Shown one piece after another: positions 5,657 through 63,699 of a stretch of 64,000 nt of DNA. The stretch's first letter is position 1; each line of letters opens with the position of its first letter. The stretch lies in the IMG/VR virus record IMGVR_UViG_3300016659_000057, positions 19,446-83,445 of that record; one strand, 5' to 3'. The translations under genes and the position numbers were made by a program. Origin of the DNA: a virus (Duplodnaviria; Caudoviricetes). A model generated the notes under the pieces. It had not been told where the DNA came from and made no database searches. It saw nothing but the letters and a program-made list of their open reading frames with translations.

Positions 5657-6721
5657 ATGCGAGCGAAAAAGGCGGCAAACAGGGACCTGCCGCCGCGAAT
5701 GATTCGGCGCGTACGCACGCTGAAGGGTGGCAAAGAGTGGGTTGGCTATTACTACGACGGGAGGAATGAAGACGGGAAGCGGGTGGAAATCCCGCTTGGG
5801 GGTGATTTAGATATCGCCAAGGCTGAATGGGCAAAGCTTGATTGCAAGCCCGTGCCGAAGAAGAACGCCCTCCTGGTCCAGGTGTTTGACCGGTATGAAC
5901 GAGAGATCATCCCAGGCAAGAAGCCCAAGACCCAGAGCGACAACTTGCTGAGCCTCAAACAGCTGCGCAAGGCTTTCAATGATGCCCCCATTGATGCAGT
6001 TTCGCCGCAGATCATCGCGCAGTACCGGGACAGCCGAACCGCCAAAGTCCGGGCCAATAGGGAGATATCCCTACTGTCCCACATCTACAACATTGCGCGG
6101 GAGTGGGGGCTCACAGAGAACAACCCCGCCGCCGGCGTGCGCAAGAACAAAGAGGTGCCGCGTGACTTCTACGCCACCGAGGAAATCTGGAGCGCCGTGT
6201 ATGCCGTCGCAGCCTCGGAACTGCGTGACGCGATGGACCTGGCCTACCTGACTGCCCAGCGCCCGGCGGATACGCTGTCCATGCGTGAGGCGGACGCCGT
6301 AAACGAATTCCTGCAGGTATCCCAGGGCAAGACATCGAAGAAGCTACGCATTCGCCTGACCGCTGCCGGCGCACTCAATGACCTAGGCGCCTTGGTTGCA
6401 AGGCTGATAGAGCAAAGACGCTTACGGGGAGTGCGAAACCCTTACCTGATAATCACCGAAGACGGCAGGCAGGTGACTAAGCACATGCTCCGGCTACGCT
6501 TTGACGATGCTCGCGACAAAGCAATCTCCATCGCCAGAGAGGTAGGCGACGGTGTTCTTGCATCCAGTATTCGACAGTTTCAGTTCCGCGACATCCGCCC
6601 GAAAGCTGCCAGTGAGATTCTGGACCTTGGCGATGCCAGTCGCCTGTTGGGGCATACGGACAAGCGGATAACCGAGACGGTTTACCGTCGTGTTGGGGAG
6701 ATTGTGAAGCCGACACGCTGA
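5657..6721 (+). CDS. int: Tyrosine recombinase (integrase A)
   Basis: QRPAD, FRDIRPKAASE, LLGH and VYRR catalytic segments. Confidence 0.92.
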   Translation: MRAKKAANRDLPPRMIRRVRTLKGGKEWVGYYYDGRNEDGKRVEIPLGGDLDIAKAEWAKLDCKPVPKKNALLVQVFDRYEREIIPGKKPKTQSDNLLSLKQLRKAFNDAPIDAVSPQIIAQYRDSRTAKVRANREISLLSHIYNIAREWGLTENNPAAGVRKNKEVPRDFYATEEIWSAVYAVAASELRDAMDLAYLTAQRPADTLSMREADAVNEFLQVSQGKTSKKLRIRLTAAGALNDLGALVARLIEQRRLRGVRNPYLIITEDGRQVTKHMLRLRFDDARDKAISIAREVGDGVLASSIRQFQFRDIRPKAASEILDLGDASRLLGHTDKRITETVYRRVGEIVKPTR

Positions 6722-6739
6722 CCGCGATCAGCGCTAGGT

Positions 6740-6769
6740 TGCGGAAACTGCCGGAAATGATGCGGAAAC
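6740..6769. repeat. Three tandem TGC(C)GGAAA(C/T) repeats, candidate integrase A arm sites
   Basis: tgcggaaac / tgccggaaat / tgcggaaac between int stop and att. Confidence 0.5.
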
Positions 6770-6802
6770 GATCAGTCTGTAGAGATTTTTCTAAGACAAA
6801 CC

Positions 6803-6911
6803 CCAGAAACGCAAAAGCCCCGCTTTCGCGAGGCTTTCGTGTAAATCTTGGCGGGAAACCAGGGATTCGAACCCTGGAGACGCTATTAACGTCCGCCGGT
6901 TTTCAAGACCG
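6803..6911 (-). repeat. att site: duplicated 3' half of tRNA-Ser (anticodon stem to CCA) plus terminator
   Basis: Matches 63563..63671 with 3 mismatches; 6803..6877 identical. Confidence 0.95.
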
Positions 6912-7145
6912 CTATGCATACTCAAGCGGGCTAGTGCCTTGAGCCCCCTTGGAGTTCCATTACTAAAGGAAAGTGACCGGGCTACAGACCGCATTCTACA
7001 AGGGGTGCGGTTTTAGTTTTGGAACTCTTTTTGACCCTCCCTCACGCCCTGCTTGCTGAAAAATAAATATCGCGGAAGTGACACGAGCCGAAACATGTAC
7101 CATCCTCAATCGTCGCGGCCGAAATATGAACAATGGAGTGTCTGC

Positions 7146-7547
7146 ATGAAGAATCTCACCCTGTCTTTGATTTTGATCTCTCTCGCTGGATGCTCCACGC
7201 CACCAAGGCCCGCCCCTGCAAAACCCCTGGTCCTATACCGATATCCGATGAGCGAGAACGCGGTACTGCTTGCTCACACGGTGGCGAGTCACGATCTCAA
7301 GGATCCAGAAAGCGCGAAGTTTCGTGATACGTTTTTCGTAACCTCAGATGCCCGCGGAGAAGCGCGAGACAAATCGAAAGATTCTTGGTGTATCGAAATC
7401 AACGGGAAGAATAGCTACGGGGCCTATGTTGGGTACACTTGGGCGCTTCTTCCTGCTGGAGGAAAATCGGTCATCATGGGCAGCTCCCCAGTCGGAGCAA
7501 TGGCAAGTCAAATTTGCTCATCCGCGACCTATCCACCTGCAGGGTAG
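7146..7547 (+). CDS. Lipoprotein (moron)
   Basis: MKNLTLSLILISLAG-C lipobox; GGAG upstream. Confidence 0.8.
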   Translation: MKNLTLSLILISLAGCSTPPRPAPAKPLVLYRYPMSENAVLLAHTVASHDLKDPESAKFRDTFFVTSDARGEARDKSKDSWCIEINGKNSYGAYVGYTWALLPAGGKSVIMGSSPVGAMASQICSSATYPPAG

Positions 7548-13622: not shown

Positions 13623-16600
13623 TCAAAGACTCAAGTCAATACCGACGACACCGTTGGCATAGATGAACTTTAGGAAGGTATTTGTGAGCATCATGGTTCC
13701 TACGCCCTCGATATTCCCGTTCATTTCAAATGTCCCATCGAAAGACAATCTCCATCCGCTAACCCCTGCAACATAGTTATTAGACTGAATGGAGTTACCT
13801 ATCTTGGCGTTAGTGATCGTGCCGTCCTCAATCATTGCCGACCTCATGAACACCTGGCCGTTGTTCACAACGAATGGCGTAGTGAGCCCACCACCGGCAA
13901 GCGTGTTCACCACGGCAAACCGATCCGCGCTCACCAGGAACTGGCTTTGCAATAAACCGTCCGCATTCTGCTCAATGCCTAGCGCAATTCCGGCAGCCAC
14001 ATACTGGCCGTTCGAGTTCACCTGCATCTTCACCGCGTACATGGTGGAAAGCTTGCCGTCGGTGTCGGCTTGCGCCTTAGCGGTGACCTGGATTGCGGCC
14101 TTGTTCTTCCACTCACTCAGCGCGCTTGCCAAATCGCCCTCATCTGTTCCATCGCGCCCCCCACCGATTACGGCCTGAAGCGTTGTGGTTTGGGATGAGA
14201 TTGCACTGTTGGTATCTGCCAGAGACTGCGTGACCGTGAGAACAGCCGCGGAGTTTTCATCCACCTTCGACTGGATGAGGTCTGAGCGCGCCGATAGAGC
14301 GGAATCGCCGTCGGCTCGTGTACTCGCTTCCGAACTTATCGCCGCTGTATTGCCGTCGACATCGCTTTTCAACTGATCCAGGCGGGTGACTGTCGCCAGC
14401 TTGTCAGTGGCCACCACCTGCTCCAGCGTGGTCAAACCGGCCCTGTTCGCACCTACTGCCGCATCCAGCGACGTCGTGCGTTCAACCAAGGCCAGGTTGT
14501 CGGAGGCTTGCACTTTCACCTGTTGGGCGAACTTTGCCGTCGCATCCCAGTTTTGCAACGCATCGGAAAGGTCACCCTCTCCATCTTCTTCACGCCAGCT
14601 TGCCTGGAGCGACTGCAGCGTAGATGCCTGGGCATTGACCTTGCCGTCCACAGTATTGATGGACGCCTGATTCTGCTGGATCTGTAATGCCATTGCCTTT
14701 GTTGTCTCGGCAATGGTGCCGATATCGAACCAGTAGGTGGCGTTGGGAGGCGTGGTATTTTTCGGTACCGGCGCTATAGCTTGGTACAGGTGCTGGCCCT
14801 GCCGCACGACGTCGCCGGCCACATAGGTTTTGGTCGGGTCATAGGCCAAAGCATCCGTGATCTGGCCGATCAGGTCCTCTAACTCCTGCTTTGCCTGCTC
14901 CAGTCGGTTATTCACCGAGCCGGGACCATCGCCAGATATCAACTCGATCTCGTCCAGCAACTCCTTGGCCAACTCCGTTTCGCCAATCTGACCGGCGATC
15001 AGGTCCAGAATCGGCCCGGCCTGTGAGCTGGCTTGGCCCATCACCCCATTCACCACCGGATAGAACGGACCGATGTTGCCGGTACGGTCCACCAGGCGCG
15101 CCCAGAAGAACAGCGTTGCGCCCGCCAACAGGGACTGCATCCGGTAGTCGGCCTGCGGATATGCCAGGTCGGCCAGCTTCGTCGCGGCCTGCAGGTTGTT
15201 CGCCGGGCCATACCAAAGCTCGGTGCGCTGGGTATCCTCGGCGCCAGCAGGGAAGCCCCACTTGATGCCGATGCCGAATAGCTCGCTGGTGGTGGTCAGG
15301 AATGACACCGCCGGCGGCAAGCCGGTCTTTCCTTCCAGGTTGGTCAGGCTGGAGTTTTTCCATATCGACGAGATTTCGAAGGCGCTCACCGCACGCACCC
15401 GAGCCAGGTAGGCGCCCGAGTAGATGCCAGTGACGTCGACGCTCGTTGAGCCAGTACTCTGCACCTTGATCCAGTTGCCGCTGTCCTTGCGCCACTCCAC
15501 GTCATAGGCGACGGCTCCGGCAACAGCGGGCCATGAGATGTTCATGGTGCTGATGGCCAGGCCCTGGTCGATGGAAATGTTCGATGTGATCGTGACGCTC
15601 GCCGGTGCCGGAACCACAGTGATCGGAATCACGCTGATTGGGCGTTCTTCCAGGCGTGCGCCGGTATCAATGCTGGCGAACTTGCTTGGCTCGTACTGCA
15701 AAGCGCTGATGTCGTAATCACCCTCTGGCGTCCGTGCGGTTCGCATCACTCTATATAGAGGGATTGCCAGGTCGTCAGCGTCGATCGCCCACTGGAGTTG
15801 TGCAGCAGGTGCCTCACTGTAGGCCACGGTCACGGTTACATTGCGACCGCTCACGCTTTCCACGGTGCGTCCTTCTGCCCGCCCGCCCGGTAGATTGATC
15901 ACCAGCCGGTCACCGGCCTTCGCCAGGGTGTCGCGGTCTAAGGTGATGACCTTCCCCGCCGCTGCCGCAATGCGCCCGCCGATCTCCCGGCCAGCCAGCA
16001 GCGAGTCGGCAACCGGAATGATGAAGCCAGGCAGCGGGATACGGCCTTCCATGCCGGTCCTGAAGCTGATCGTGCGGTCCTGGTTGTTGCTCAGGACTAG
16101 CCATTTTGCCCGACGCTGGGCTTCAGATGCCCGGGTGCAACCGATGGCACTGATCTCAGTCGGCTTGTCGCCCAGGCGGCGCTGTAGCGGCAGGTCTGAA
16201 TAGACCGTGACGTCGGTGTCGTAGTTGTTGAGCGGGTTGTCGTAGCTGACCAGACAGCGAGTGAAGCGGGTCTTCGCCGAGGCGCTGCCGTAGGAGATCT
16301 TGCCGTCGATGACGTTGGACCGGGTGAAGACGTAATCGATGTCCTGCGCCCGAGGCATATCAGCCTGCATGACCAACTGGCCCTGGGCCCAGTACGTCAT
16401 CCCGCGATAGATACCGGCGATGTCGCGCAGCAGTGACCAAGCGTCGGCCTTGCCCTGCAGGTTCATGTCGCACAGGAAGCGCGGCTCAACGCCATCAGCA
16501 CCATTGGGCACCATCTGGTCGCAGTATTGCGCGATGCGGTACAGCTCCCACTTGTCCACCATCCACGGCTTGATGCGGCGGCCCAGGCCGAAACGGTCCT

Positions 16601-17480
16601 GGGTGCAGATCCCGTAGGTGATCCAGGCCGGGTTGTTGGTCCAGGCCTCCTTCATGGTGCCGTCCCATGCGCCGGTGTAGCTGCGGGACACAGGTTCATA
16701 GTTGCTCGGCACCTGCCAGCGGCGGGCCTTGCACTTCACGGTGACGGCCGGGATGTTGGTGAACTGCTCGGCGTCGAATTCAACGAACAGCAATGCAGTG
16801 TTCGGATAGCGCAGCTTTGCGTCGATCACCTGGGTGTAGCCGGCGATGAAGAGGCTGTCCGCGACTTTGTCGGTGTTCTGCGAGTTTGGCGTGAGGCGGC
16901 GAACGCGGATCAGCCAGCCGCTGGTAGCCGGTGGCAGGTCTATTCGCAGAGACCGCTCGTAGCGGGTGGTGGTCTTTCCGTCCATAGCGCCCACCAGAAC
17001 CTGCTGATATGCCCCGCCGTCGGTTGCCACATCGACCGCATATTCAATACGGTAGCCGTTGATGTTGCCTTCAGCGTCCTGGCTCGCCAGGCGCGGCGTG
17101 GCCAGGCGGATACGCGCGGCCGAGAGCTGAAGGTTGGTCAGCGACTGAACCCAAGGCGTGCCGCTGCGCAGCTCGATGTTCAGTGAGGTCTCATTGTCTA
17201 CAGACGGAATACCCGGGATGTAGGCCTGCTCAACGGAGCCTGGGCGCCAGTCCCACTTCACGTTGGTGAAGTTGAAATTGCCGCTGGCATCCTGAATCGG
17301 GGTGTTGTCGAGGAAGATATCGCGCGCAGTGGGAGTGCCGTCGAATTCGCCCTCGCCCACCGCGATCAGGATCTTGGCTATGTTGGTCGAGCGCAGGCTG
17401 TCGGGCGCCTCTACAGGGGCCTTTGGCTTGCTCTCGCCACCTTTGGCACCGTGAATATCCAGCTTCTGTGCTGCGCCCAT
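13623..17480 (-). CDS. J: Tail tip / host specificity protein J
   Basis: 1285 aa; GAKGG..., WTNNPAW, FN3-like region, C-terminal DUF1983-like segment. Confidence 0.93.
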   Translation of the reverse strand: MGAAQKLDIHGAKGGESKPKAPVEAPDSLRSTNIAKILIAVGEGEFDGTPTARDIFLDNTPIQDASGNFNFTNVKWDWRPGSVEQAYIPGIPSVDNETSLNIELRSGTPWVQSLTNLQLSAARIRLATPRLASQDAEGNINGYRIEYAVDVATDGGAYQQVLVGAMDGKTTTRYERSLRIDLPPATSGWLIRVRRLTPNSQNTDKVADSLFIAGYTQVIDAKLRYPNTALLFVEFDAEQFTNIPAVTVKCKARRWQVPSNYEPVSRSYTGAWDGTMKEAWTNNPAWITYGICTQDRFGLGRRIKPWMVDKWELYRIAQYCDQMVPNGADGVEPRFLCDMNLQGKADAWSLLRDIAGIYRGMTYWAQGQLVMQADMPRAQDIDYVFTRSNVIDGKISYGSASAKTRFTRCLVSYDNPLNNYDTDVTVYSDLPLQRRLGDKPTEISAIGCTRASEAQRRAKWLVLSNNQDRTISFRTGMEGRIPLPGFIIPVADSLLAGREIGGRIAAAAGKVITLDRDTLAKAGDRLVINLPGGRAEGRTVESVSGRNVTVTVAYSEAPAAQLQWAIDADDLAIPLYRVMRTARTPEGDYDISALQYEPSKFASIDTGARLEERPISVIPITVVPAPASVTITSNISIDQGLAISTMNISWPAVAGAVAYDVEWRKDSGNWIKVQSTGSTSVDVTGIYSGAYLARVRAVSAFEISSIWKNSSLTNLEGKTGLPPAVSFLTTTSELFGIGIKWGFPAGAEDTQRTELWYGPANNLQAATKLADLAYPQADYRMQSLLAGATLFFWARLVDRTGNIGPFYPVVNGVMGQASSQAGPILDLIAGQIGETELAKELLDEIELISGDGPGSVNNRLEQAKQELEDLIGQITDALAYDPTKTYVAGDVVRQGQHLYQAIAPVPKNTTPPNATYWFDIGTIAETTKAMALQIQQNQASINTVDGKVNAQASTLQSLQASWREEDGEGDLSDALQNWDATAKFAQQVKVQASDNLALVERTTSLDAAVGANRAGLTTLEQVVATDKLATVTRLDQLKSDVDGNTAAISSEASTRADGDSALSARSDLIQSKVDENSAAVLTVTQSLADTNSAISSQTTTLQAVIGGGRDGTDEGDLASALSEWKNKAAIQVTAKAQADTDGKLSTMYAVKMQVNSNGQYVAAGIALGIEQNADGLLQSQFLVSADRFAVVNTLAGGGLTTPFVVNNGQVFMRSAMIEDGTITNAKIGNSIQSNNYVAGVSGWRLSFDGTFEMNGNIEGVGTMMLTNTFLKFIYANGVVGIDLSL

Positions 17481-44080: not shown

Positions 44081-44155
44081 ATAAGGCATTACCTTATCAC
44101 GGGCAAGCCATTGCCTAACCGTCAGCGCAATAGGCTTAATTAGGCAATGCTTACC
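44081..44155. promoter_or_regulatory. OR-like operators, three 17-bp imperfect palindromes
   Basis: ATAAGGCATTACCTTAT (44081), GCAAGCCATTGCCTAAC (44103), ATTAGGCAATGCTTACC (44139, overlaps cI ATG). Confidence 0.75.
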
Positions 44156-45001
44156 GGACCAGAATTAGGCGCAGCCATTGAAGCTGCGCGGATCGCCAAG
44201 GGCGTATCGAAAAAAGACCTCGCAGACGACTTCTCCGTGAAGCCTCCGTCGATACAGGGCTGGGTGAAAAACGGCAGGATCGACAAGTCGAAGCTGATGG
44301 ACGTGATCGCCTATTTCTCCGATGTCGTTGGCCCAGAGCACTGGGGTCTGCGCCCTGGCTTTTCATATGAAAATATTGGAGACGGCGCCAGAACTGGCGT
44401 TTTAGTTGCTGAGCCAGAGCCTGCTTCGACCGCCGTCGAGAAGTTCCGAGCAATGCTTGCTGGGAAGCGCCTCGGCGAAGACAAGCTAATGAGGCTTCTA
44501 GCTATTGCGGAAGATGACGCCCTGGGCGAGGAGTTGGGCGGCTTGGTGCATGACGCCTACAGGCCTGGAAAGGTGGGCGACGAAGTATGGATTGCTCACT
44601 ATGACGTACGCGGAGCCTTGGGCGGCGGCGAAATTGCTCATGACTTCCCCGAGATGCTCCAGGACGTGCGCGTCAGCCCCTCCCAGCTCCGAGCCATGGG
44701 CGTCGAGTTCAAAGAGCACTTCCATCTGAAGATGATCACCGGCTGGGGGCAGTCCATGACGCCAACCATCAAGCATGGCGATCCGCTACTGGTCGATGTC
44801 AGCATCAAAGAGTTCGTTGGCGATGGAATCTACTTCTTCTCGTACCAAGGCTTTCAGTACATCAAGCGTCTGCAAATGAAGGGTAAGGACAAATTCAAGA
44901 TGCTGTCGGACAATCGGAAGCACAAGGCCGAGGACATCTTTCTTGATGAAACGTACATCCAGGCGCGTGTGCTGCTCGTCTGGAATGCCAATCTGGTATA
45001 G
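44147..45001 (+). CDS. cI: CI-like repressor, HTH + S24 peptidase
   Basis: N-terminal HTH; GQSMTP (Ser) and YIKRL (Lys) autocleavage dyad. Confidence 0.92.
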   Translation: MLTGPELGAAIEAARIAKGVSKKDLADDFSVKPPSIQGWVKNGRIDKSKLMDVIAYFSDVVGPEHWGLRPGFSYENIGDGARTGVLVAEPEPASTAVEKFRAMLAGKRLGEDKLMRLLAIAEDDALGEELGGLVHDAYRPGKVGDEVWIAHYDVRGALGGGEIAHDFPEMLQDVRVSPSQLRAMGVEFKEHFHLKMITGWGQSMTPTIKHGDPLLVDVSIKEFVGDGIYFFSYQGFQYIKRLQMKGKDKFKMLSDNRKHKAEDIFLDETYIQARVLLVWNANLV

Positions 45002-50345: not shown

Positions 50346-50427
50346 GTTAGGCAAAGCTTATATCAGCCCCGATCTGAATGTCACCACCAAAAAGGGGAAT
50401 AACCAGCAGGAGAAATTTCTTTAAATA

Positions 50428-50469
50428 ATTAGGCATTACCTATTTACAGGTGATTAGGCATTAGCTTAT
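50428..50469. promoter_or_regulatory. OL-like operators (two 17-bp sites)
   Basis: ATTAGGCATTACCTATT and ATTAGGCATTAGCTTAT match OR consensus. Confidence 0.78.
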
Positions 50470-50706
50470 CTTTGCTCCATCGAGTCACCCAACAGGGCTC
50501 GACAGGGCCTCACAGCCTACCGCTCTTTGGTTTCACCCCTTGCCGGATCACCACCGGCCCAGATTCAAAGGCAGCGATGAACCGGCCTAAACGGTTCAGA
50601 GGGTTGGCAACTGACCCGGGCGTGCAGCGTAAAGCGCCAAGAACAGTTATCCAGCGGGAGAACAAGCCGAAAGGCCCGCGGCTGGAGTGACATTTGATTC
50701 AAGCCG

Positions 50707-53622: not shown

Positions 53623-53665
53623 CCCCCTTCACAGCGCCCCTCTCCGGTGGCGCGGAGAGACAGTA

Positions 53666-54397
53666 ATGTCCGATAAAAACATGCAGATCTGGAATCGCGT
53701 CGAGAAGACGGATACCCGGTACACCAAAGACGCGAAGGTCGGTGGCCAGCAGATCACCAGCCTGAATGGTACGGCGATGATCATGAAGGCCACCGAAGTG
53801 TTCGGTCCGGCAGGCATCGGTTTCGGCTGGAAAGTGCTGGAAGAGCGTTTCGACCCTGGCGTCGAGGTGTTCATCGGCGAAGGTGACAAGCGCTCCAGCC
53901 TGGGCTTTACCAGTAACCACACTGTTCGTATCGCCTTCTGGTTCGTGCTCGACGGCCAGCGCGGCGAGATCGAATCGTATGGCTGCACAAACTACATCTA
54001 CAAGGCGTCGTACGGGATGCTCACAGATGGCGAGGCCCCAAAGAAAAGCCTCACCGACGCAATCAAGAAGGCTTTGAGCTCGCTCGGGTTCAGCGCCGAC
54101 GTGTTCCTGGGGATGTTCGACGACAAGGACTACGTCAACGCTCTGGCTGATGAGCAAGCGATCGAGCAGGCCGAAGACAAGGTCGCCGAGGAAGAGCGCC
54201 AAAAACAGGAGCGCCTGGACTACATCGCGTCCGTTATAGGGTCCTTAAAGACCGCCAAGACGCCGAAGGAGCTCAAAGCATTCCATGACGTTGCTGTCCG
54301 TCGCCTCACGCTGCGCAACGACACCAAGGCCGTTACCCGGATCGTGCGCGAGTACGACGATCAGAAAGTCCGGTTCGAACAGGAGTCAGCAGCATGA
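53666..54397 (+). CDS. Single-strand annealing recombinase (Rad52/Rad22-like)
   Basis: KTD..YTK...ATEVFGP.G.G.GW, A.KKSLTDAIKKALS.LGF.ADVF.G.FDD. Confidence 0.72.
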   Translation: MSDKNMQIWNRVEKTDTRYTKDAKVGGQQITSLNGTAMIMKATEVFGPAGIGFGWKVLEERFDPGVEVFIGEGDKRSSLGFTSNHTVRIAFWFVLDGQRGEIESYGCTNYIYKASYGMLTDGEAPKKSLTDAIKKALSSLGFSADVFLGMFDDKDYVNALADEQAIEQAEDKVAEEERQKQERLDYIASVIGSLKTAKTPKELKAFHDVAVRRLTLRNDTKAVTRIVREYDDQKVRFEQESAA

Positions 54398-54891
54398 CGA
54401 CGCTCTATACCATTGCCGAGCAGTTCAAGGAACTGGCAATCCTGGCTGAAACAGCCGACGAAGACCTGGCCGTCGCACTGCGCGACACCATGGAAGGGAT
54501 CGAGGGCGAGTTCCAGGAGAAGGGTAAGGCAATCGCCATGATTACCCTGAACATCGACGGCGACCTTGAGGCCATCCAATCCCAGATTGACCGGCTGACC
54601 GAGCGCAAGCGGATCATCAACAACCGCAAGGAAAGCCTCAAGGAGTACCTGCGCAGCAACATGGACGCGGCAGGGATCACCAAGATTACCCACCCGCTGT
54701 TCACCATCACCTGCGGCAAGGGCAAGCCCATCGTGGTCATCGACGACGAAAAGGCCATACCCGACGACTTCGTCAACATCAAAGTAACCAGCGCGCCGGA
54801 CAAGGCAGCCATCGCCAAGGCCTTGAAGGATGGACAGGAGGTCCCTGGCGCCCACTCCGAGATCGGCAAAAGCTCGATCAGCATCAAGTGA
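54394..54891 (+). CDS. Siphovirus Gp157 family protein
   Basis: LYTIAEQF...IP.DF......PDK.AI.KALK.G.EVPGA. Confidence 0.85.
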   Translation: MTTLYTIAEQFKELAILAETADEDLAVALRDTMEGIEGEFQEKGKAIAMITLNIDGDLEAIQSQIDRLTERKRIINNRKESLKEYLRSNMDAAGITKITHPLFTITCGKGKPIVVIDDEKAIPDDFVNIKVTSAPDKAAIAKALKDGQEVPGAHSEIGKSSISIK

Positions 54892-54898
54892 GGTCAGC

Positions 54899-55489
54899 AT
54901 GATCAGCATCCTACAGAACGAAGTAGAACGCCTTCGGAAGTCTTCGAACGAGCTGGCCGCCCAGGTCGCTGAGTTTGTGGCGGCCGGCGGTGAGATAGAG
55001 GAAATAAAGCCGCCGCCACCACCGAAACCGGTCGTCTACGTACCTCAAGAGCCTCCAGCGCCCAAGCCGTTCGTTCGGCGCCGGGTTGAAGCAGCTCCCC
55101 TGCCCCTGGACAGGGAAGATGTTCGGGGGCAGGCCAGGCTAAAGCTGGTGGAGCACATGCGCCAACTGAGCACCACGCACACCCAAACAGAGGCCGCCGC
55201 CGCCCTGGGCATCAGTCGCCGCAACGTCTACAAGCACGCCACCATGAACGACATCACGTTCAAGAAGCCGGAACGAGGCGGTGCGAACAACAACTACCGC
55301 CGAGACCAAATGGGTGAGCGCGACGCGAAGTACGCCGAGCGCATCCGTGCATTCCTGGAGCTTGGAATCACACGGCGCCAGTGCTGCGGGAAGCTCGCCA
55401 TCAACAATAAGGCCTTTGAGCGGATCATCGCGGCCCACGGCATCGACTATCCAAAGGCCCGTCGCGGAAGCACCTCATGCGCCGCATAG
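54899..55489 (+). CDS. Hypothetical protein with HTH-like segments
   Basis: TQTEAAAALGISRRNV; GAGG RBS. Confidence 0.7.
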   Translation: MISILQNEVERLRKSSNELAAQVAEFVAAGGEIEEIKPPPPPKPVVYVPQEPPAPKPFVRRRVEAAPLPLDREDVRGQARLKLVEHMRQLSTTHTQTEAAAALGISRRNVYKHATMNDITFKKPERGGANNNYRRDQMGERDAKYAERIRAFLELGITRRQCCGKLAINNKAFERIIAAHGIDYPKARRGSTSCAA

Positions 55490-55921: not shown

Positions 55922-56515
55922 ATGAAGCCCGAAATGATCACCCTGAAACACGGCGACGCGTCTATCAAGATGCCTGCCTCGGCCTTGGCACAACTGGCAA
56001 TGGCCAGCGTGTTTGCCCAGGTGCTGCCACCGGCGGCGAACGCTCAAATGTCCGCTCCATGTGTCGCGCCATCCATTGGCGAATACTGGCCAGGCCAGGG
56101 CGGCATCAACGCGGGCTTCGTACCGCGGCGTGGCGAGGTTGCAGCCCACTATCTGATTTTCGGCGACAAAGATCTTGGTGAGTTCAAGTGGGGCCGCTAC
56201 CAGGAAGAATCGCAAGCCACCAGCAAGTGGGATGGCAAAGCCAACACTGATGCGTTGATCGCTGCGGGAGGCCATCCAGCAGCCGAAGCGGCTCGATCAT
56301 ACACAGCAGACGGTCACGAAGATTTTGACTTGCCAGCGGCCGCGCAGTTGCATCAGGCCTGGACTCACGACCTGATCACCAAGGGTTACTACTGGTCGAG
56401 TTCGCAGCGCTCAGCCCACACCGCCTTCTACATGCTCTTCGATGTTGGCTATCAGTACGACTTCGCCAAGTACCTCGAGCTCCGTGTCCGCCCCGTCCGC
56501 AGATTCTTTATTTAA
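55922..56515 (+). CDS. DGR target 1, DUF1566 / C-type-lectin-fold protein
   Basis: DG..NT, LPA..QL, YWSSS...RVRPVR with C-terminal VR; GAGGA RBS. Confidence 0.88.
   Translation: MKPEMITLKHGDASIKMPASALAQLAMASVFAQVLPPAANAQMSAPCVAPSIGEYWPGQGGINAGFVPRRGEVAAHYLIFGDKDLGEFKWGRYQEESQATSKWDGKANTDALIAAGGHPAAEAARSYTADGHEDFDLPAAAQLHQAWTHDLITKGYYWSSSQRSAHTAFYMLFDVGYQYDFAKYLELRVRPVRRFFI
56402..56506 (+). repeat. Variable region VR1
   Basis: 105 nt, 16 mismatches to TR, all at TR adenines. Confidence 0.96.
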
Positions 56516-56548
56516 TCCTTCATCCATTCGTTCTTGATCCGGCACACC

Positions 56549-56565
56549 AGGGCGCACAGCGCCTT
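56549..56565 (+). other. GC hairpin downstream of VR1 (DGR target hairpin and/or terminator)
   Basis: AGGGCGC-ACA-GCGCCTT followed by T-run. Confidence 0.5.
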
Positions 56566-56594
56566 TTTTGTTGCCTTCGAAAAGAGGAAGCACC

Positions 56595-57215
56595 ATGTCC
56601 GCAGTTGAGAAAGCAGCACCGGCAGTGACCATCCCGGCCATCGGCCAGGCCTACGGCGGCGGTTTCGTCACCGGCATCACCCGCGATCCGGCAACCGGTA
56701 AGCGCTCCCTGCACATCACCGCCGGCGCAGCGCATGAGCTGATCGGTAAGTGGGGCGAGTACGGCGAGAAGATCGAAGGTGCCGACAGCTTCACCGACAG
56801 CTTGGCCAACACCCAGGCCATGGCAGCGGCAGGGAGTGAACTGGCAGCGAAGGTGCTAGCCCTGAATATCGAAGGCTTCGCCGATTGGGCGATCCCAGCG
56901 CGCGACGTGCAGGAGCTGCAATACCGCCACTTCAAGCCGACCACCGAAGAGAACTGGGAGAACTCGCGCAACGGTGACAATCCGCACAGCGAGCCAGTCG
57001 GCAAGCTGTACAGCGCCGAAGACCCGCTGCAAACCGTGCACGCCGCCTTCCAAGAAGGTGGCGCCGAAGCCTTCCGCGAAACCTGGTACTGGTCGAGTTC
57101 GCAGCGCTCAGCCAACAACGCATTCGGCATGACCTTCGTTGCTGGCACTCAGGACGGCACCGGCAAGGATCACGAGCTCCGTGTCCGCCCCGTCCGCAGC
57201 GAGCTTATTGATTAA
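56595..57215 (+). CDS. DGR target 2, DUF1566 / C-type-lectin-fold protein
   Basis: DS..NT, DWAIPARD, YWSSS...RVRPVR with C-terminal VR; AGAGGAA RBS. Confidence 0.88.
   Translation: MSAVEKAAPAVTIPAIGQAYGGGFVTGITRDPATGKRSLHITAGAAHELIGKWGEYGEKIEGADSFTDSLANTQAMAAAGSELAAKVLALNIEGFADWAIPARDVQELQYRHFKPTTEENWENSRNGDNPHSEPVGKLYSAEDPLQTVHAAFQEGGAEAFRETWYWSSSQRSANNAFGMTFVAGTQDGTGKDHELRVRPVRSELID
57099..57199 (+). repeat. Variable region VR2
   Basis: 101 nt, 14 mismatches to TR: 13 at TR adenines, one C>T. Confidence 0.95.
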
Positions 57216-57229
57216 TTCGCTTATTTAAT

Positions 57230-57247
57230 CCGGTCGCTTGCGGCCGG
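57230..57247 (+). other. GC hairpin downstream of VR2
   Basis: CCGGTCG-CTTG-CGGCCGG. Confidence 0.55.
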
Positions 57248-57276: not shown

Positions 57277-57633
57277 ATGGGAATGCACACCGATCTGTCG
57301 ATCTATCGAGCGGCCATGGGCCTCCTGCACATGGCGACCATCCTGACTCGCAACATCCCGCGAGACCTCAAACAATCGCTGGGCAAGCGAGTGATCGACG
57401 AATGCATCGAGGTCGTGATGCTGATCGCCCGTGCAAACGCAACCCAGGACAAACGCCCCCACCTGACTCTGCTGGTCGAGAGGGTTCAAGTGGTCGAGTT
57501 CCTGATGCGCCTATTCAAGGACAGCCGATTCATCAGTGTCGAACAGCATGCTAAAGCGATCGAGGTAACAGCCTCCGTCGGCAAGCAAGCCAACGCCTGG
57601 AAACGCTCCACCCCAACCGCGCCCGCTACCTGA
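57277..57633 (+). CDS. avd: DGR accessory variability determinant (four-helix bundle)
   Basis: L.IY....P...K.SLG...I.RAN...LMRL......IS......VGKQANAWKR; lies between target and TR. Confidence 0.88.
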   Translation: MGMHTDLSIYRAAMGLLHMATILTRNIPRDLKQSLGKRVIDECIEVVMLIARANATQDKRPHLTLLVERVQVVEFLMRLFKDSRFISVEQHAKAIEVTASVGKQANAWKRSTPTAPAT

Positions 57634-57805
57634 AGGTTACGGCTTTCTGGTCTGTGCGAATTGAATCTGGTCGTGCCGCTGACCTGATAGGTCACCGCCA
57701 TGCGCATCAGGGATACCGACGGTCTAAAGTGTCCGTGCAGGTCTCGCGCAGTTTCCTTGCTGATCGGCTATGCCTTCGGCTCGGCGACGTAGATAGCACG
57801 ATAGG

Positions 57806-57910
57806 TCGCAGCGCTCAGCCAACAACGCATTCAACATGAACTTCGATGATGGCAATCAGAACAACAACGACAAGAACAACGAGCTCCGTGTCCGCCCCGT
57901 CCGCAGATTC
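57806..57910 (+). repeat. DGR template repeat (TR)
   Basis: 105 nt, 33 adenines, nine AAC and one AAT codon in the target reading frame. Confidence 0.96.
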
Positions 57911-59006
57911 GACTTTGGGTCCCTACCCGTTTCAGGATCTGGTTCAGGCCTATTACGACTGCCGAAGCACCAAGCGCAACAGCGACAGCGCACTGGCTTT
58001 CGAGATCGACCTGGAGCGGAACCTGATTCAACTGCACGACGACCTGGTCAGCGGCAATTACCGCCCAGGCCGATCCATTTGTTTCGTTGTCACCCGCCCC
58101 AAAGCCCGCGAAGTCTGGGCGGCAGCCTTTCGGGACCGCGTCGTCCACCACCTGATGTACAACCATGTGGCCCCGCGCTTCTACGCCAGCTTCATAGCGG
58201 ACAGTTGCGCGTGTATTCCAGGGCGCGGCACGATGTACGCCGCCAAGCGGCTTGAGTCGAAGATTCGTAGCGCCAGTGAGAACTGGTCGAAGCCGATCTT
58301 CTACCTGAAGTGCGACCTGGCCAACTTCTTTGTCGCCATCGACAAGGCGGTGCTGCGCAAGCAACTTGAGGCCAGGATCACCGAACCATGGTGGCTCGCC
58401 CTGGCCACGCAGATCCTCATGCACGACCCGCGTGAGGATTACGAGACGCGAAGCCCGGCGCACCTGTTCAACCGGGTGCCGCAGCACAAGCGACTGGTGG
58501 CCCAGCCCTCCCGCCTCGGCCTGCCGATCGGCAATCTGTCATCGCAGTTCTTCGCCAACGTCTACCTCGACGCCCTGGACCAGTTCGCCAAGCACAGGCT
58601 GCGCGCCAAGCACTACATACGCTACGTGGACGACTTCGTCTTTCTGCATGAGTCACCGCAACGGCTCAACCAGTGGCTGGCCGAGGTCGAAGCTTTCCTG
58701 CCCAAGCTCGGCGCCAAGCTGAACCCCACCAAGACGATCCTGCAGCCCGTGGATCGCGGCGTCGACTTCGTGGGCCACGTCATCAAGCCCTGGCGGCGCA
58801 CCACCCGCAAGCGATCACTGGCCCAGGCACTGAAGCGCACCGCCGCGGCGCCGGCCGAGGATCTGCGCGAGACGGCCAACAGCTACTTCGGCCTGCTCAG
58901 CCAGGCCAGCCACAGCCATATGGACCGGGCAGCACTCGCCCGCGTCGTGCTGAAGCGCGGCAATAGCGTCAACGCCGCGCTGACCAAGACCTTTCAGAAA
59001 AAGTAA
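57846..59006 (+). CDS. DGR reverse transcriptase (start uncertain: ATG 57846 inside TR or TTG 57915)
   Basis: RDRVVHH, CDLANFF, GLPIGNLSSQFFANVYL (DGR-type SQ motif), YIRYVDDF, GVDFVGH. Confidence 0.95.
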   Translation: MMAIRTTTTRTTSSVSAPSADSTLGPYPFQDLVQAYYDCRSTKRNSDSALAFEIDLERNLIQLHDDLVSGNYRPGRSICFVVTRPKAREVWAAAFRDRVVHHLMYNHVAPRFYASFIADSCACIPGRGTMYAAKRLESKIRSASENWSKPIFYLKCDLANFFVAIDKAVLRKQLEARITEPWWLALATQILMHDPREDYETRSPAHLFNRVPQHKRLVAQPSRLGLPIGNLSSQFFANVYLDALDQFAKHRLRAKHYIRYVDDFVFLHESPQRLNQWLAEVEAFLPKLGAKLNPTKTILQPVDRGVDFVGHVIKPWRRTTRKRSLAQALKRTAAAPAEDLRETANSYFGLLSQASHSHMDRAALARVVLKRGNSVNAALTKTFQKK

Positions 59007-59050
59007 CTACCCCACTCCACCGCCCGGGCATGGCCCGGCAAGGACTCCCC

Positions 59051-59608
59051 GTGATCAACTTGTTCTGGCGCTTGGTCGCCAAGCTGCTTGCGCGCCCGGC
59101 GGTTGCCGCCTGGCTCATCACCCGCGCCCAGCGCACCCCGTACCTGCACATCATGTCCGCCGACGGCGCCGAGATGTACATGGGCCGCTGGTGGCTGTTC
59201 AACCCCTACTCCCGCGACACGCACAAGCCTGCGCTGCGGTGGTGCCCGTGGTCGTTCCGTGTGCACCACATCATGCGGCCCGACGAGGACCGGGATCTGC
59301 ATGACCACCCGTGGGATGCCCGCACGATCATCCTGCGCGGCTGGTACACCGAACAGCGCTTGCTAGACCACGATGACCCGGTGTTGTCCGGCCTGAACGT
59401 GCCTTTCGGCGCCCAGGCCACCGAATACATCGACCGCCACGCCGGCGACACCGCCCGCCTCAACCACGGCGAGTACCACCGGATCGACGAGCTATCGCCC
59501 GGCGGCGTCTACACCCTCTTCATCACCAGCAAGTGGCGTGGTGAATGGGGCTTTCTGGTCAACGGCGTGAAGGTTCCATGGCGCACCTACACCGGCACAG
59601 ACAATTGA
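59051..59608 (+). CDS. Cupin-like hypothetical protein
   Basis: DLHDHPWD...ILRGWYTE and GEYHRI His motifs; AAGGA RBS, GTG start. Confidence 0.68.
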   Translation: MINLFWRLVAKLLARPAVAAWLITRAQRTPYLHIMSADGAEMYMGRWWLFNPYSRDTHKPALRWCPWSFRVHHIMRPDEDRDLHDHPWDARTIILRGWYTEQRLLDHDDPVLSGLNVPFGAQATEYIDRHAGDTARLNHGEYHRIDELSPGGVYTLFITSKWRGEWGFLVNGVKVPWRTYTGTDN

Positions 59609-62442: not shown

Positions 62443-63492
62443 ATGCGCCCCCGAAACACGGAAAACAGGGACTTGCCGCCAGGAATGGTGCGTCGTAAGC
62501 GCCCAAGGAAGAATGGCAAGGTCTGGATCGGCTACTACTACCGTGACTCAGCGGGAAAAGAGATTCCGCTTGGTACAGACCTGAGCAAAGCCCGGCTGAA
62601 GTGGGCCGAACTGGAGGCCAAAGAAAAGCCTGCCGACCTGACAACGATGAAGGGCATCTTCGACCGATACGTGCGCGACGTCATCCCAAAAAAGGGGGAG
62701 CGAACCCAGAAGGACAACATGGCCGAACTGAAACAGCTTCGTCCTACGTTTGATGAGGCGCCCATCGATTCAATTACGCCGTTCAACGTCGCCGGCTACC
62801 GTGATGCCCGCTCAGCGAAGGTTCGTGCCAACCGCGAGATCGCGCTCCTGTCCCACGTTTTCAACATGGCCAGGGAGTGGGGGCTCACGGAGCGGGAGAA
62901 CCCTTGCCAGGGCATCAGGAAGAACAAGGAGGCACCGCGTAATTACTACGCCAACGCGGCTGTTTGGGATGCCGTCTACGCGGTTGCCGAACAAGAACTC
63001 AAGGAGGCCATGGACCTGGGCTATTTGACCGGACAGCGGCCTGCTGACGTGCTGATCATGCGCAGCGACGATACCGAAGGTGACTACTTCCTGGTAACCC
63101 AGGGCAAGACCGGCCAGAAGCTTCGAATCCTGATGCGTACGGAAGCCGGGGAAAACAGCTTGGGGAGATTGCTCAGGGAGATTGGCGAAAGGAATGTCGG
63201 TCATTCATCCAAGTACCTGCTGATCAACAGGTATGGAAAGCGAATGACGAAGGGGATGTTGCGCTTGCGCTGGGACAAGGCTCGGGAAAAAGCCCAGCAG
63301 AACGCCATCGAACAAGGCGACCCGCTGCTCGCGGCCAAGATTGGAGGGTTTCAGTTCCGCGACATCCGGCCGAAGGCCGCGTCGGAAATCATCGATATCG
63401 GGGATGCCAGCCTGCTACTGGGACACAGCAAACAGGAGATCACAAAGCGGGTTTACAGGAGGATTGGCGCCACCGCGAAACCGTCCAAATAG
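62443..63492 (+). CDS. int: Tyrosine recombinase (integrase B)
   Basis: GQRPAD, FRDIRPKAASE, LLGHS, RVYRR; clearly homologous to integrase A. Confidence 0.93.
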   Translation: MRPRNTENRDLPPGMVRRKRPRKNGKVWIGYYYRDSAGKEIPLGTDLSKARLKWAELEAKEKPADLTTMKGIFDRYVRDVIPKKGERTQKDNMAELKQLRPTFDEAPIDSITPFNVAGYRDARSAKVRANREIALLSHVFNMAREWGLTERENPCQGIRKNKEAPRNYYANAAVWDAVYAVAEQELKEAMDLGYLTGQRPADVLIMRSDDTEGDYFLVTQGKTGQKLRILMRTEAGENSLGRLLREIGERNVGHSSKYLLINRYGKRMTKGMLRLRWDKAREKAQQNAIEQGDPLLAAKIGGFQFRDIRPKAASEIIDIGDASLLLGHSKQEITKRVYRRIGATAKPSK

Positions 63493-63532: not shown

Positions 63533-63566
63533 GGCCAAAAGCAGAAGAAACATTCTCAAACACCAG

Positions 63567-63600
63567 AAACGCAAAAGCCCCGCTTTCGCGAGGCTTTCGT
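63567..63600 (-). terminator. Intrinsic terminator downstream of tRNA-Ser
   Basis: AAAGCCTCGC-GAAA-GCGGGGCTTT-TGCGTTT on minus strand; identical copy at 6807..6840. Confidence 0.8.
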
Positions 63601-63608
63601 GTAAATCT

Positions 63609-63699
63609 TGGCGGGAAACCAGGGATTCGAACCCTGGGAACGCTATTAACGTTCGCCGGTTTTCAAGACCGGTGCATTCAACCACTCTGCCAATTTCCC
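63609..63699 (-). tRNA. serT: tRNA-Ser(TGA)
   Basis: Acceptor GGGAAAT/GTTTCCC-G-CCA, anticodon loop CTTGAAA, long variable arm, TTCGAAT T-loop. Confidence 0.96.

What the first reader, a model, noticed from the sequence alone, without database searches (positions are those of the whole stretch)
55922..57215. One TR drives two tandem, non-structural lectin-fold targets in the early operon
Seen: both targets are ~200-aa standalone DUF1566-like proteins, divergent outside the C-terminus. They sit between the recombination genes and xis-int, co-oriented with PL-type early genes and about 40 kb from the tail genes. Target 2 has no signal peptide; target 1 has at most a weak one. VR1 is aromatic-rich (H T Y L V Y Y D F A Y L) while VR2 is small/polar (N N G T V A T D G T G D H). 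Inference: hypervariable intracellular binders made early in infection, perhaps binding host defence proteins or rival phage proteins, rather than tropism switching. A two-binder set diversified from one template could be an undescribed phage counter-defence or host-takeover system.
Basis: inference. Interest (0 to 1): 0.85.

Follow-up and report, generated by a model that had tools for sequence, protein, structure and literature searches.

The report
Phage DGR diversifying two early proteins
A Pseudomonas prophage carries an active mutagenic retroelement that rewrites the binding surfaces of two small lectin-fold proteins sitting among its early, non-structural genes rather than its tail genes, which suggests, but does not prove, that the phage diversifies proteins acting inside the cell.

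Summary
One template repeat (TR, 57806-57910) matches two variable repeats at the 3' ends of two adjacent paralogous genes: T1 (55922-56515) and T2 (56595-57215). Of 30 mismatches, 29 fall on TR adenines. An Avd gene, an RT-15 RNA and a DGR-type reverse transcriptase follow.

The element lies in a ~57-kb lambdoid prophage at tRNA-Ser, about 5.5 kb downstream of an operator-flanked PL-like promoter. It sits between recombination genes and int, and is convergent with the late operon.

Both VRs are active in nature. Across 29 related loci there are 27 distinct VR1 and 27 distinct VR2 sequences, varying at TR-adenine columns. Some relatives, including isolated phage Cruim01, carry a third target near the repressor gene. 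Six relatives, including Medea1, lost the RT but keep the T1-T2 pair.

T1 folds (pLDDT 95) as an N-terminal hairpin-helix plus a C-type-lectin domain closest to Legionella Lcl-CTD. The targets belong to a large family of ~160-210-aa proteins without signal peptides. In 12 of 12 informative contexts, family members sit in early regions, never in tail modules.

A non-virion, early role is therefore supported by context only. A counter-defence function is untested. DGRs with short DUF1566 targets or several targets are already known; the early-operon placement is the new variant.

The parts
55922..56515 (+). Target 1 (T1), 197 aa: N-terminal beta-hairpin (5-18) plus helix (19-32), linker, C-type-lectin-like domain (50-197)
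   Evidence: ORF and Shine-Dalgarno site. phrog_4245, E 1.6e-30. AF2 pLDDT 95. Best PDB match is the Lcl C-terminal domain 8q4e, E 7.8e-6.
56402..56506 (+). VR1
   Evidence: 16 mismatches to TR, all at TR adenines. 27 distinct versions in 29 related loci.
56549..56565 (+). GC-rich hairpin plus T-run downstream of VR1 (candidate DGR target-recognition hairpin or terminator)
   Evidence: Terminator-like scan.
56595..57215 (+). Target 2 (T2), 206 aa (alternative TTG start at 56568): C-type-lectin-like domain with a low-confidence insert at residues 119-148
   Evidence: Shine-Dalgarno site. Pfam Lcl_C E 5e-6, below the gathering score. phrog_4245, E 1.9e-29. AF2 pLDDT 82.7. More than 1000 homologues listed at 80-91% identity, the named ones from Pseudomonas genomes.
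57099..57199 (+). VR2
   Evidence: 14 mismatches to TR, 13 at TR adenines. Hypervariable residues 174-193 across 105 homologues. 27 distinct versions in 29 loci.
57230..57247 (+). GC-rich hairpin downstream of VR2
57277..57633 (+). avd (accessory variability determinant); the ORF is open from TTG 57238, and ATG 57277 gives the 118-aa form annotated in Cruim01
   Evidence: Pfam bAvd E 8e-13, above the cut-off. phrog_3206 'Avd protein of DGR', E 2.2e-30.
57617..57808 (+). RT-15 structured RNA (Rfam RF03018), immediately upstream of and abutting TR
   Evidence: cmscan 181.8 bits against a gathering score of 82, E 1.9e-45, full-length match.
57806..57910 (+). Template repeat (TR): 33 adenines, 11 AAY codons
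   Evidence: Only 13 distinct TRs in 29 loci, against 27 distinct versions of each VR.
57846..59006 (+). DGR reverse transcriptase (IGNLSSQ and YVDD motifs). The true start codon is unresolved; the annotated 5' end overlaps TR
   Evidence: Translation. Pfam RVT_1 E 4.3e-17. PADLOC generic RT model. Start-codon candidates.
50350..50472 (+). OL-type operators and PL-like promoter heading the early-left operon
   Evidence: Promoter-like site at 50443-50472. TTAGGCAWTRCCTAA-like sites shared with the OR region at 44081-44150.
44147..45001 (+). cI-like repressor
   Evidence: phrog_4 and phrog_6201.
53663..54891 (+). Recombination genes upstream of the cassette (Rad52-like, Sipho_Gp157)
   Evidence: Pfam.
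62443..63492 (+). Integrase at the end of the early-left operon
   Evidence: ORF. tblastn relatives. Position beside the att site and tRNA-Ser.
63563..63637 (.). att repeat overlapping the tRNA-Ser(tga) 3' end; the second copy at 6803-6877 marks the other prophage end
   Evidence: Exact repeat. tRNA.

Best explanation
This is an active diversity-generating retroelement (avd, RT-15 RNA, TR, RT) in a lambdoid Pseudomonas prophage.

Shown:
- The element is complete.
- Adenine-specific variation marks both VRs, here and across the population.
- The cassette lies in the early-left operon.
- The targets have a lectin fold.
- The wider protein family sits in early regions of other phages.

Inferred mechanism of diversification:
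- TR RNA is copied by the RT with adenine-specific errors.
- The cDNA replaces the last ~100 nt of two adjacent paralogous genes, T1 and T2.
- This rewrites about 13 surface residues of each C-type-lectin-like domain independently, for up to ~5e17 protein variants per target.

Inferred biology:
- Targets and DGR genes lie ~5.5 kb downstream of an operator-controlled PL-like promoter, between recombination genes and int.
- They are therefore most likely silent in the lysogen and made with the delayed-early genes after infection or induction.
- The proteins most likely stay in the cytoplasm as small hypervariable ligand binders rather than joining the virion.
- New variants would arise during lytic replication and be selected in the next infection.

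Speculative: the ligand is probably a strain-variable host protein or a competing-element protein, for example a defence component.
For: DGR identity:
- TR/VR mismatches are 16/16 and 13/14 at TR adenines.
- bAvd scores above the Pfam cut-off, and RVT_1 is present with IGNLSSQ and YVDD motifs.
- RT-15 RNA scores 181.8 bits.
- GC hairpins follow each VR.

Natural activity of both targets:
- 29 related loci hold 27 distinct VR1, 27 distinct VR2 and only 13 distinct TRs.
- Variable columns fall at TR adenines in 27/33 (VR1) and 29/33 (VR2) positions.
- Among 105 T2 homologues, entropy peaks only at VR residues.

Early-operon placement:
- The lambdoid map is clear.
- OR and OL operators and a PL-like promoter are present.
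- The cassette order T1-T2-avd-TR-RT is kept in 30 of 36 related loci, next to Rad52/Gp157, ERF/YqaJ/SSB or RecT/YqaJ genes and upstream of int.

Family context:
- T1 has 1479 hits among 50%-identity representatives (E <= 0.001), mostly 150-210 aa.
- Only 3 of the best 150 have a signal-peptide-like N-terminus, and those three are giant proteins.
- 12 of 12 informative contexts are early regions, with or without a DGR. These regions lie near the repressor gene or among recombination or replication genes.

Other:
- The fold is a CLec domain closest to Legionella Lcl-CTD.
- Cysteine content is low: T1 has one, T2 none.
- T1 is the fastest-evolving part of the cassette, at about 60% median identity against ~84% for T2 and ~95% for RT.
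Against:
- No virion proteomics exists for Cruim01 or Medea1.
- The same domain forms the C-terminal tip of long tail-fibre-like proteins in other phages, and phrog_4245 matches only the last ~170 of 583 profile positions. A receptor-binding role is therefore structurally possible.
- Virion proteins also lack signal peptides, so that feature does not discriminate.
- In the circular genome the targets are only ~13 kb from gene J.
- Six of 36 relatives lost the RT yet keep T1-T2, so continuing diversification is dispensable.
- No ligand, partner or phenotype is known.
- An internal promoter active in lysogens cannot be excluded by a consensus scan.
Confidence: 0.6

Rival explanations
1. T1 and T2 are virion-associated accessory receptor-binding proteins or adhesins. 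They would dock on the tail or fibre, for instance through T1's N-terminal hairpin-helix, so the DGR would serve classical tropism switching despite the gene position.
For: - BPP-1 Mtd is the paradigm, and most viral DGR targets are tail proteins (PMC8144416).
- Two-target phage DGRs have been interpreted as receptor-binding (PMC10743442).
- BFVD fold matches include the C-termini of S74-peptidase, collagen-repeat and tail-fibre proteins.
- After circularisation the targets are ~13 kb from gene J.
Against: - The genes are co-oriented with the early-left operon and convergent with the late operon.
- The family sits in early regions in 12 of 12 contexts and never beside tail genes.
- T2 and many family members are essentially the bare domain, with no attachment module.
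- Relatives have a third target just after the repressor gene.
Confidence: 0.2
2. The targets are expressed from the prophage in lysogens, like a moron. They would serve the lysogen as a hypervariable sensor or blocker against superinfecting phages, or would be released or exported to act at the cell surface.
For: - Prophage accessory genes near int or att are often lysogen-expressed.
- Terminator-like hairpins after each target could delimit small independent units.
- In some relatives a family member lies shortly after the repressor gene, the position of lambda rexAB.
- Cytoplasmic DGR-diversified putative antigen sensors have been proposed in bacteria (PMC10907252, listed).
Against: - No promoter-like site lies between PL and the targets.
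- The targets carry no effector domain and give no PADLOC hit.
- There is no signal peptide, lipobox or TAT motif.
- The cassette lies downstream of the OL/PL region, not in the cI transcription unit.
Confidence: 0.13
3. Diversification is largely incidental. T1 and T2 would have a conserved early function that does not depend on the variable surface, and the DGR would persist as a semi-selfish passenger.
For: - Six of 36 relatives, including isolated phage Medea1, lost RT and/or avd but retain intact T1-T2.
- Many family members in other phages have no DGR nearby.
Against: - The TR keeps the AAY-codon design that avoids stop codons at 11 positions.
- The VRs remain in frame in the 36 T1 and 36 T2 orthologues aligned (one T2, in L045, aligns in two overlapping pieces and was not checked for integrity).
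- The cassette is intact in 30 of 36 loci, and up to three targets have been recruited to one TR.
Confidence: 0.07

Closest known systems
Bordetella phage BPP-1 DGR (mtd-avd-TR-brt)
   Same: It has the same component set (target, Avd, TR, RT) and the same adenine-specific mutagenic retrohoming signature. The VR is at the C-terminus of a C-type-lectin fold. It is also phage-encoded.
   Different: - BPP-1 has a single target, the tail-fibre tip protein Mtd, in the structural region. Here there are two small standalone CLec proteins (three in relatives) in the repressor-controlled early-left operon.
- Here the structured RNA (RT-15) lies upstream of TR and TR abuts the RT ORF. In BPP-1 the spacer RNA lies downstream of TR (own knowledge of the BPP-1 system).
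Wu et al. 2018 category 'd' DGR targets (DUF1566/DUF823/Fib_succ_major, CLec2 VRs; e.g. Legionella LdtA)
   Same: The VR lies in a DUF1566-type CLec domain. About half of that category are short proteins made of the domain alone (PMC5758913).
   Different: - LdtA is a surface lipoprotein of a cellular element, and Fib_succ_major members have lipoprotein signals and conserved cysteines.
- T1 and T2 have no signal peptide, 0-1 cysteine, and sit in a phage early operon.
Two-target phage DGRs (tentaclins, PMC10743442)
   Same: One TR serves two target genes in a phage genome, and both targets have a CLec domain with a hypermutated surface.
   Different: Tentaclins have an N-terminal CLec domain followed by Ig domains and are interpreted as receptor- or host-binding virion proteins of gut phages. 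Here the targets are tandem paralogues with C-terminal VRs among early genes.
DGR-diversified putative antigen sensors of multicellular bacteria (PMC10907252)
   Same: The idea is the same: a DGR diversifies a ligand-binding domain that acts inside the cell in a conflict system.
   Different: Those are large cellular proteins with signalling or effector domains, encoded by the bacterium. Here the targets are bare binding domains of about 200 aa encoded by the phage.
Legionella pneumophila Lcl C-terminal domain (PDB 8q4e; Pfam PF07603)
   Same: It is the best structural match to the T1 model (E 7.8e-6, TM 0.72 on the target length). T2 gives a weak Pfam hit to this family.
   Different: Lcl is a secreted collagen-like adhesin. 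Sequence identity is only 18%, and Lcl carries no DGR or VR.

Membership tests
Diversity-generating retroelement (DGR) | Reverse transcriptase of the DGR type ((I/L)GxxxSQ motif and YxDD) | tested here: met
   The ORF 57846-59006 contains IGNLSSQ and YVDD (translation). Pfam RVT_1 E 4.3e-17.
Diversity-generating retroelement (DGR) | TR/VR near-repeats whose differences fall at TR adenines | tested here: met
   VR1 16/16 and VR2 13/14 mismatches at TR adenines. The same pattern holds in the 30 related loci that retain a TR.
Diversity-generating retroelement (DGR) | Accessory protein Avd | tested here: met
   PF22296 at 49.3 bits, above the 40-bit cut-off. phrog_3206 'Avd protein of DGR'.
Diversity-generating retroelement (DGR) | VR at the 3' end of the target ORF, within a C-type-lectin fold | tested here: met
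   Each VR ends 9-16 nt before its stop codon. AF2 models and the Lcl-CTD / CTLD fold matches.
Diversity-generating retroelement (DGR) | IMH in the VR versus IMH* in the TR, and a downstream GC hairpin | tested here: inconclusive
   A GC-rich block, GAGCTCCGTGTCCGCCCCGTCCGCAG, is identical in all three copies. After it the VRs share an A/T-rich TTATT-type stretch that TR lacks. Hairpins lie at 56549-56565 and 57230-57247. Their function was not tested.
Diversity-generating retroelement (DGR) | Actual retrohoming activity | tested here: met
   The evidence is indirect and at population level: 27 distinct VR1 and 27 distinct VR2 against 13 distinct TRs in 29 loci, with four-state variation at TR-adenine columns. 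No experimental test was possible.
Pfam PF07603 Lcl_C (DUF1566) | Score at or above the Pfam gathering threshold | tested here: not met
   T2 scores 27.2 bits against a cut-off of 34.9, and T1 gives no hit. The collection's precomputed Pfam column nevertheless lists PF07603 for the identical T2 protein and most homologues.
Pfam PF07603 Lcl_C (DUF1566) | Fold of the Lcl C-terminal domain | tested here: met
   The best Foldseek PDB hit is 8q4e_A: E 7.8e-6, probability 1.00, TM 0.72 normalised on the target.
Phage receptor-binding DGR targets (Mtd-like) | Gene in the tail or late structural module | tested here: not met
   The targets lie in the + strand early-left operon, while tail genes are on the - strand at 13.6-23.3 kb. 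Family members are in early regions in 12 of 12 contexts.
Phage receptor-binding DGR targets (Mtd-like) | Presence in the virion and an effect on adsorption | not testable with these tools
   The papers on Medea1 and Cruim01 contain no virion proteomics.
Phage anti-defence or host-takeover early proteins | Early expression, binding of a host target, and a phenotype on defence-carrying hosts | not testable with these tools
No anti-defence library was available, and the PADLOC defence models gave no hit.

The most novel reading that the evidence does not exclude
Temperate Pseudomonas phages may use a DGR as an adaptive intracellular binder generator. The TR would continually re-randomise two or three small cytoplasmic lectin-fold proteins made early in infection. 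Variants that neutralise whatever strain-specific defence or rival-element protein the next host carries would then be selected. That would be the first DGR-driven counter-defence or host-takeover system, and a phage-side counterpart of an antibody repertoire.
Probability: 0.3. Interest if true: 0.9.

Novelty: new variant of a known kind. Interest (0 to 1): 0.68.

Why it matters
Phage DGRs are understood almost entirely as tropism switches acting on tail proteins. Here a conserved, naturally active DGR lineage targets two or three small proteins embedded in the repressor-controlled early operon. It is widespread in the Pseudomonas genomes that hold close T2 homologues (P. fluorescens, P. protegens, P. 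veronii and others) and in P. syringae phages, including the isolated phages Cruim01 and SC_8_H2H8_2017.

The targets also belong to a much larger, uncharacterised family of early-region lectin-fold proteins of temperate phages.

If these proteins act inside the cell, DGR hypervariation would extend to intracellular phage-host or phage-phage conflict. It would also define a natural scaffold for evolving cytoplasmic binders. Cultured phage-host pairs exist (Cruim01 on P. syringae CC1557; Medea1 as a natural RT-less control), so the question can be tested directly.

Tried and rejected
- Complex prediction for a T1 + T2 heterodimer gave no verdict (score 0.02). It is not used as evidence either way.
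Taxonomic range therefore rests on source names and on IMG/VR loci.
- A search of the 83-kb record for further VRs found only the two VRs and the TR, plus one chance 19-nt hit. tblastn found no third paralogue in the window.
- PADLOC gave no hit for T1, T2 or Avd.
- The protein atlas search returned only the same DUF1566/Lcl_C clusters.
- Literature searches for a function of DUF1566 early phage proteins, for DGR plus anti-defence, and for RT-15 found nothing specific. The papers on Medea1, Cruim01 and PseuP_222/224 do not mention the DGR.
- T1's N-terminus as a signal peptide was considered and rejected. The maximum 12-residue hydropathy is 1.77, there is no basic n-region, lipobox or RR motif, and the segment is predicted as a folded hairpin-helix conserved in orthologues.
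- An alternative T1 start at Met43 was rejected because it has no Shine-Dalgarno site, whereas ATG 55922 has GAGGA.
- The RT start codon could not be resolved: ATG 57846/57849 lie inside TR, and the TTG at 57915 has no clear Shine-Dalgarno site.
Full report
**1. The observation**

The window holds one three-copy repeat family: 56390-56521, 57087-57218 and 57794-57925. When aligned, the third copy is adenine-rich and the other two differ from it almost only where it has A.
- In the homologous core (TR 57806-57910), VR1 (56402-56506) has 16 mismatches, all at TR adenines.
- VR2 (57099-57199) has 14 mismatches, 13 at adenines and one C>T.
- All three copies share an identical GC-rich 3' block. 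After it the two VRs share an A/T-rich stretch that TR lacks.
- A GC hairpin with a T-run follows each VR, at 56549-56565 and 57230-57247.
- Both VRs are in frame at the extreme 3' ends of two adjacent + strand ORFs.
- T1 starts at ATG 55922 behind GAGGA.
- Downstream come avd (Pfam bAvd above cut-off; phrog 'Avd protein of DGR'), a full-length RT-15 RNA (RF03018, 181.8 bits) abutting TR, and a 386-aa reverse transcriptase with the DGR-type IGNLSSQ and YVDD motifs.
- The whole 83-kb virus record contains no further VR, and the window holds no further paralogue.
- TR has 33 adenines and 11 AAY codons, giving a theoretical ~5e17 protein variants per target.

**2. Where it sits**

PHROG and Pfam hits give a classical lambdoid map.
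- On the + strand: a cI-like repressor at 44147-45001.
- On the - strand: cII-like, Ant, O-like, NinG, terminase, major capsid, tape measure and J (13623-17480).
- TTAGGCAWTRCCTAA-like operators occur beside cI (44081-44150). They recur at 50350-50470, where they flank the only + strand promoter-like site found in 50-63.7 kb, at 50443-50472.

The + strand genes from ~51 kb to int (62443-63492) therefore form a PL-type early-left operon. Its order is: small early genes, a Rad52-like gene and Sipho_Gp157, an HTH/SutA-RBD-like protein, phrog_5439, T1, T2, avd, TR, RT, a cupin, small genes, a DNA methyltransferase, a xis-like ORF and int.

A 75-nt repeat of the tRNA-Ser 3' end (63563-63637 = 6803-6877) delimits a prophage of about 57 kb. 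This corrects one detail. On the circular phage genome T2 is ~13 kb from J, not ~40 kb. It is still transcribed convergently to the late operon, exactly as lambda's delayed-early genes upstream of xis-int are.

**3. Both targets are active, and the cassette is conserved**
- T2 has more than 1000 homologues, the best 120 at 80-91% identity. Those that carry a source name come from Pseudomonas species such as P. protegens, P. fluorescens, P. tolaasii, P. veronii and P. poae.
- In 105 ungapped homologues, sequence entropy is concentrated at residues 174-193, the VR.
- 33 IMG/VR loci plus three isolated phages (SC_8_H2H8_2017, Cruim01, Medea1) carry T1-T2, in 30 cases followed by avd-TR-RT.
- Across 29 loci with a TR there are 27 distinct VR1, 27 distinct VR2 and only 13 distinct TRs. 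Variable columns fall on 27/33 and 29/33 TR adenines. Neither target is a dead copy.
- Five relatives (L019, L024, L033, L034 and Cruim01) have a third VR with 10-16 mismatches, all at adenines, 5.7-9 kb upstream in a ~150-200-aa paralogue. In Cruim01 this gene lies ~1.7 kb downstream of the repressor gene.
- Six relatives, including Medea1, have lost RT and/or avd but keep T1-T2.
- T1 is the fastest-evolving component, at a median of ~60% identity against ~84% for T2 and ~95% for RT.

**4. What the targets are**
- T1 modelled with a 126-sequence alignment gives pLDDT 95: a beta-hairpin (5-18), a helix (19-32), a linker and a compact domain (50-197).
- The domain's best PDB match is the Legionella Lcl C-terminal domain (8q4e, E 7.8e-6), followed by animal C-type-lectin-like domains.
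- T2 is the same domain with a poorly predicted insert at 119-148 and no N-terminal module.
- Pfam Lcl_C/DUF1566 is hit only below threshold. Both targets match only the C-terminal ~170 positions of phrog_4245.
- A scan of 1.8 billion representatives finds 1479 relatives of T1, mostly 150-210 aa. Only 3 of the best 150 have a signal-peptide-like N-terminus, and those are giant proteins. Many start a few residues before the conserved PxIGxxWPGQGG motif or carry a short hairpin-like N-terminal motif like T1's.
- T1 has one cysteine and T2 none.
- In BFVD the fold appears both as standalone DUF1566 phage proteins (including one in Pseudomonas phage D3) and at the C-termini of long tail-fibre-like proteins.

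**5. Context of the wider family**

Every informative neighbourhood I could retrieve is an early region.
- Just after an HTH or S24 repressor: L008, L009, L053, PAN70 and vB_Pae_U9.
- Among RecT/YqaJ, SSB, ParB or HNH/HD genes upstream of int: L047, L049, L011, Cruim01 and Medea1.
- Between DnaB and RusA in a BPP-1-like podophage, or after a cro-like HTH: L048 and L054.

Some have avd and RT next to them (L008, L010, L046, L047); many have none. None is next to tail genes. This is the strongest argument that the family, and hence T1 and T2, are not structural proteins. It is nevertheless contextual evidence only.

**6. How it most likely works**

Shown: a complete DGR, adenine-specific diversification of both VRs in nature, early-operon placement, the CLec fold, and no export signals.

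Inferred:
- The cassette is repressed in the lysogen and transcribed from PL after induction or infection.
- Retrohoming then seeds a fraction of replicating genomes with new VR1 and VR2 alleles independently.
- In the next infection the incoming genome expresses its own variants early, in the cytoplasm, where the variable face binds a ligand.

Speculative: the ligand is a strain-variable host defence protein or a rival mobile-element protein. I put ~0.6 on 'early, non-virion cytoplasmic binders' and ~0.3 on the counter-defence reading.

Rivals:
- Virion-associated accessory receptor binders (0.2).
- A lysogen-expressed sensor or exclusion function (0.13).
- Incidental diversification (0.07).

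**7. Comparison with what is known**
- DGRs with DUF1566-type (CLec2) VRs are a recognised class. About half of those targets are short domain-only proteins, and multi-target and remote-target DGRs are documented (PMC5758913).
- Two-target phage DGRs have been described and read as receptor-binding (PMC10743442).
- The global survey classifies viral targets mostly as tail proteins and mentions non-structural targets only in passing (PMC8144416).
- Intracellular DGR targets have been proposed for bacterial conflict systems (PMC10907252, listed).
- I found no paper placing phage DGR targets in an early operon, none characterising this early-region family, and none noting the DGR in Cruim01, Medea1 or related phages. 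The library is incomplete, so this is absence of evidence.

I rate this a new variant of a known kind.

**8. What could not be done**
- The T1-T2 complex prediction gave no verdict.
- No virion proteomics exists for the relatives.
- The RT start codon and the roles of the hairpins and of RT-15 remain unresolved.

**9. Verdict**

Its functional idea is plausible, untested and now directly testable with cultured phages. Interest: 0.68.

Noticed in passing
window 5657-6877 and 63563-63699: Two elements sit in tandem at tRNA-Ser(tga). A 75-nt att repeat (63563-63637 = 6803-6877) bounds the ~57-kb prophage. A second integrase (5657-6721) sits just left of the inner copy, so window 1-6.8 kb belongs to a separate integrated island.
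   Followed up: partly
window 57617-57910: The RT-15 RNA (RF03018) lies upstream of and abuts TR, and TR runs into the annotated RT ORF. This differs from the BPP-1 layout, where the structured spacer RNA follows TR. Cruim01's annotation also marks an RT-15 RNA there without calling a DGR.
   Followed up: partly
L002 (Cruim01) 282-386; L019 4694; L024 3542; L033 5346; L034 1042: Relatives have a third VR, with all mismatches at TR adenines, in a ~150-200-aa paralogue 5.7-9 kb upstream of the cassette. In Cruim01 it lies ~1.7 kb after the repressor gene. One TR can therefore serve three early-operon targets.
   Followed up: partly
L003 (Medea1), L021, L028, L031, L032, L040: These loci keep intact T1-T2 with differing VRs but have lost RT and/or avd (L021 and L032 keep avd; only short RT remnants are left). 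They are natural RT-less controls.
   Followed up: partly
window 54899-55489: An early protein combines a SutA RNAP-binding-domain match (PF20661, E 1.3e-7) with an HTH. A SutA-RBD protein also occurs near a family member in L054. It may be a phage factor that binds host RNA polymerase.
   Followed up: no
window 59030-59608: A cupin gene (phrog_4786, 'cysteine dioxygenase', E 1e-49) lies directly after the RT and is conserved there in 7 of 36 related loci.
   Followed up: no
window 44081-44150 and 50350-50472: Shared TTAGGCAWTRCCTAA-like operator half-palindromes occur at OR and at a PL-like promoter (TTTACA-18-TATCTT). They define the immunity region and the start of the early-left operon.
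   Followed up: partly
window 55922-56050 and many family members: A conserved N-terminal beta-hairpin plus helix module (ITLKxGDAxIKxP...) is seen in T1. Related NLxIxL-type motifs occur in many homologues but are absent from T2. It may be a docking or oligomerisation element of unknown partner.
   Followed up: partly
L051 (vB_Pae_U9) 6860-7489: The GenBank annotation calls a - strand ORF over the + strand DUF1566 homologue, which is probably a mis-called gene.
   Followed up: no
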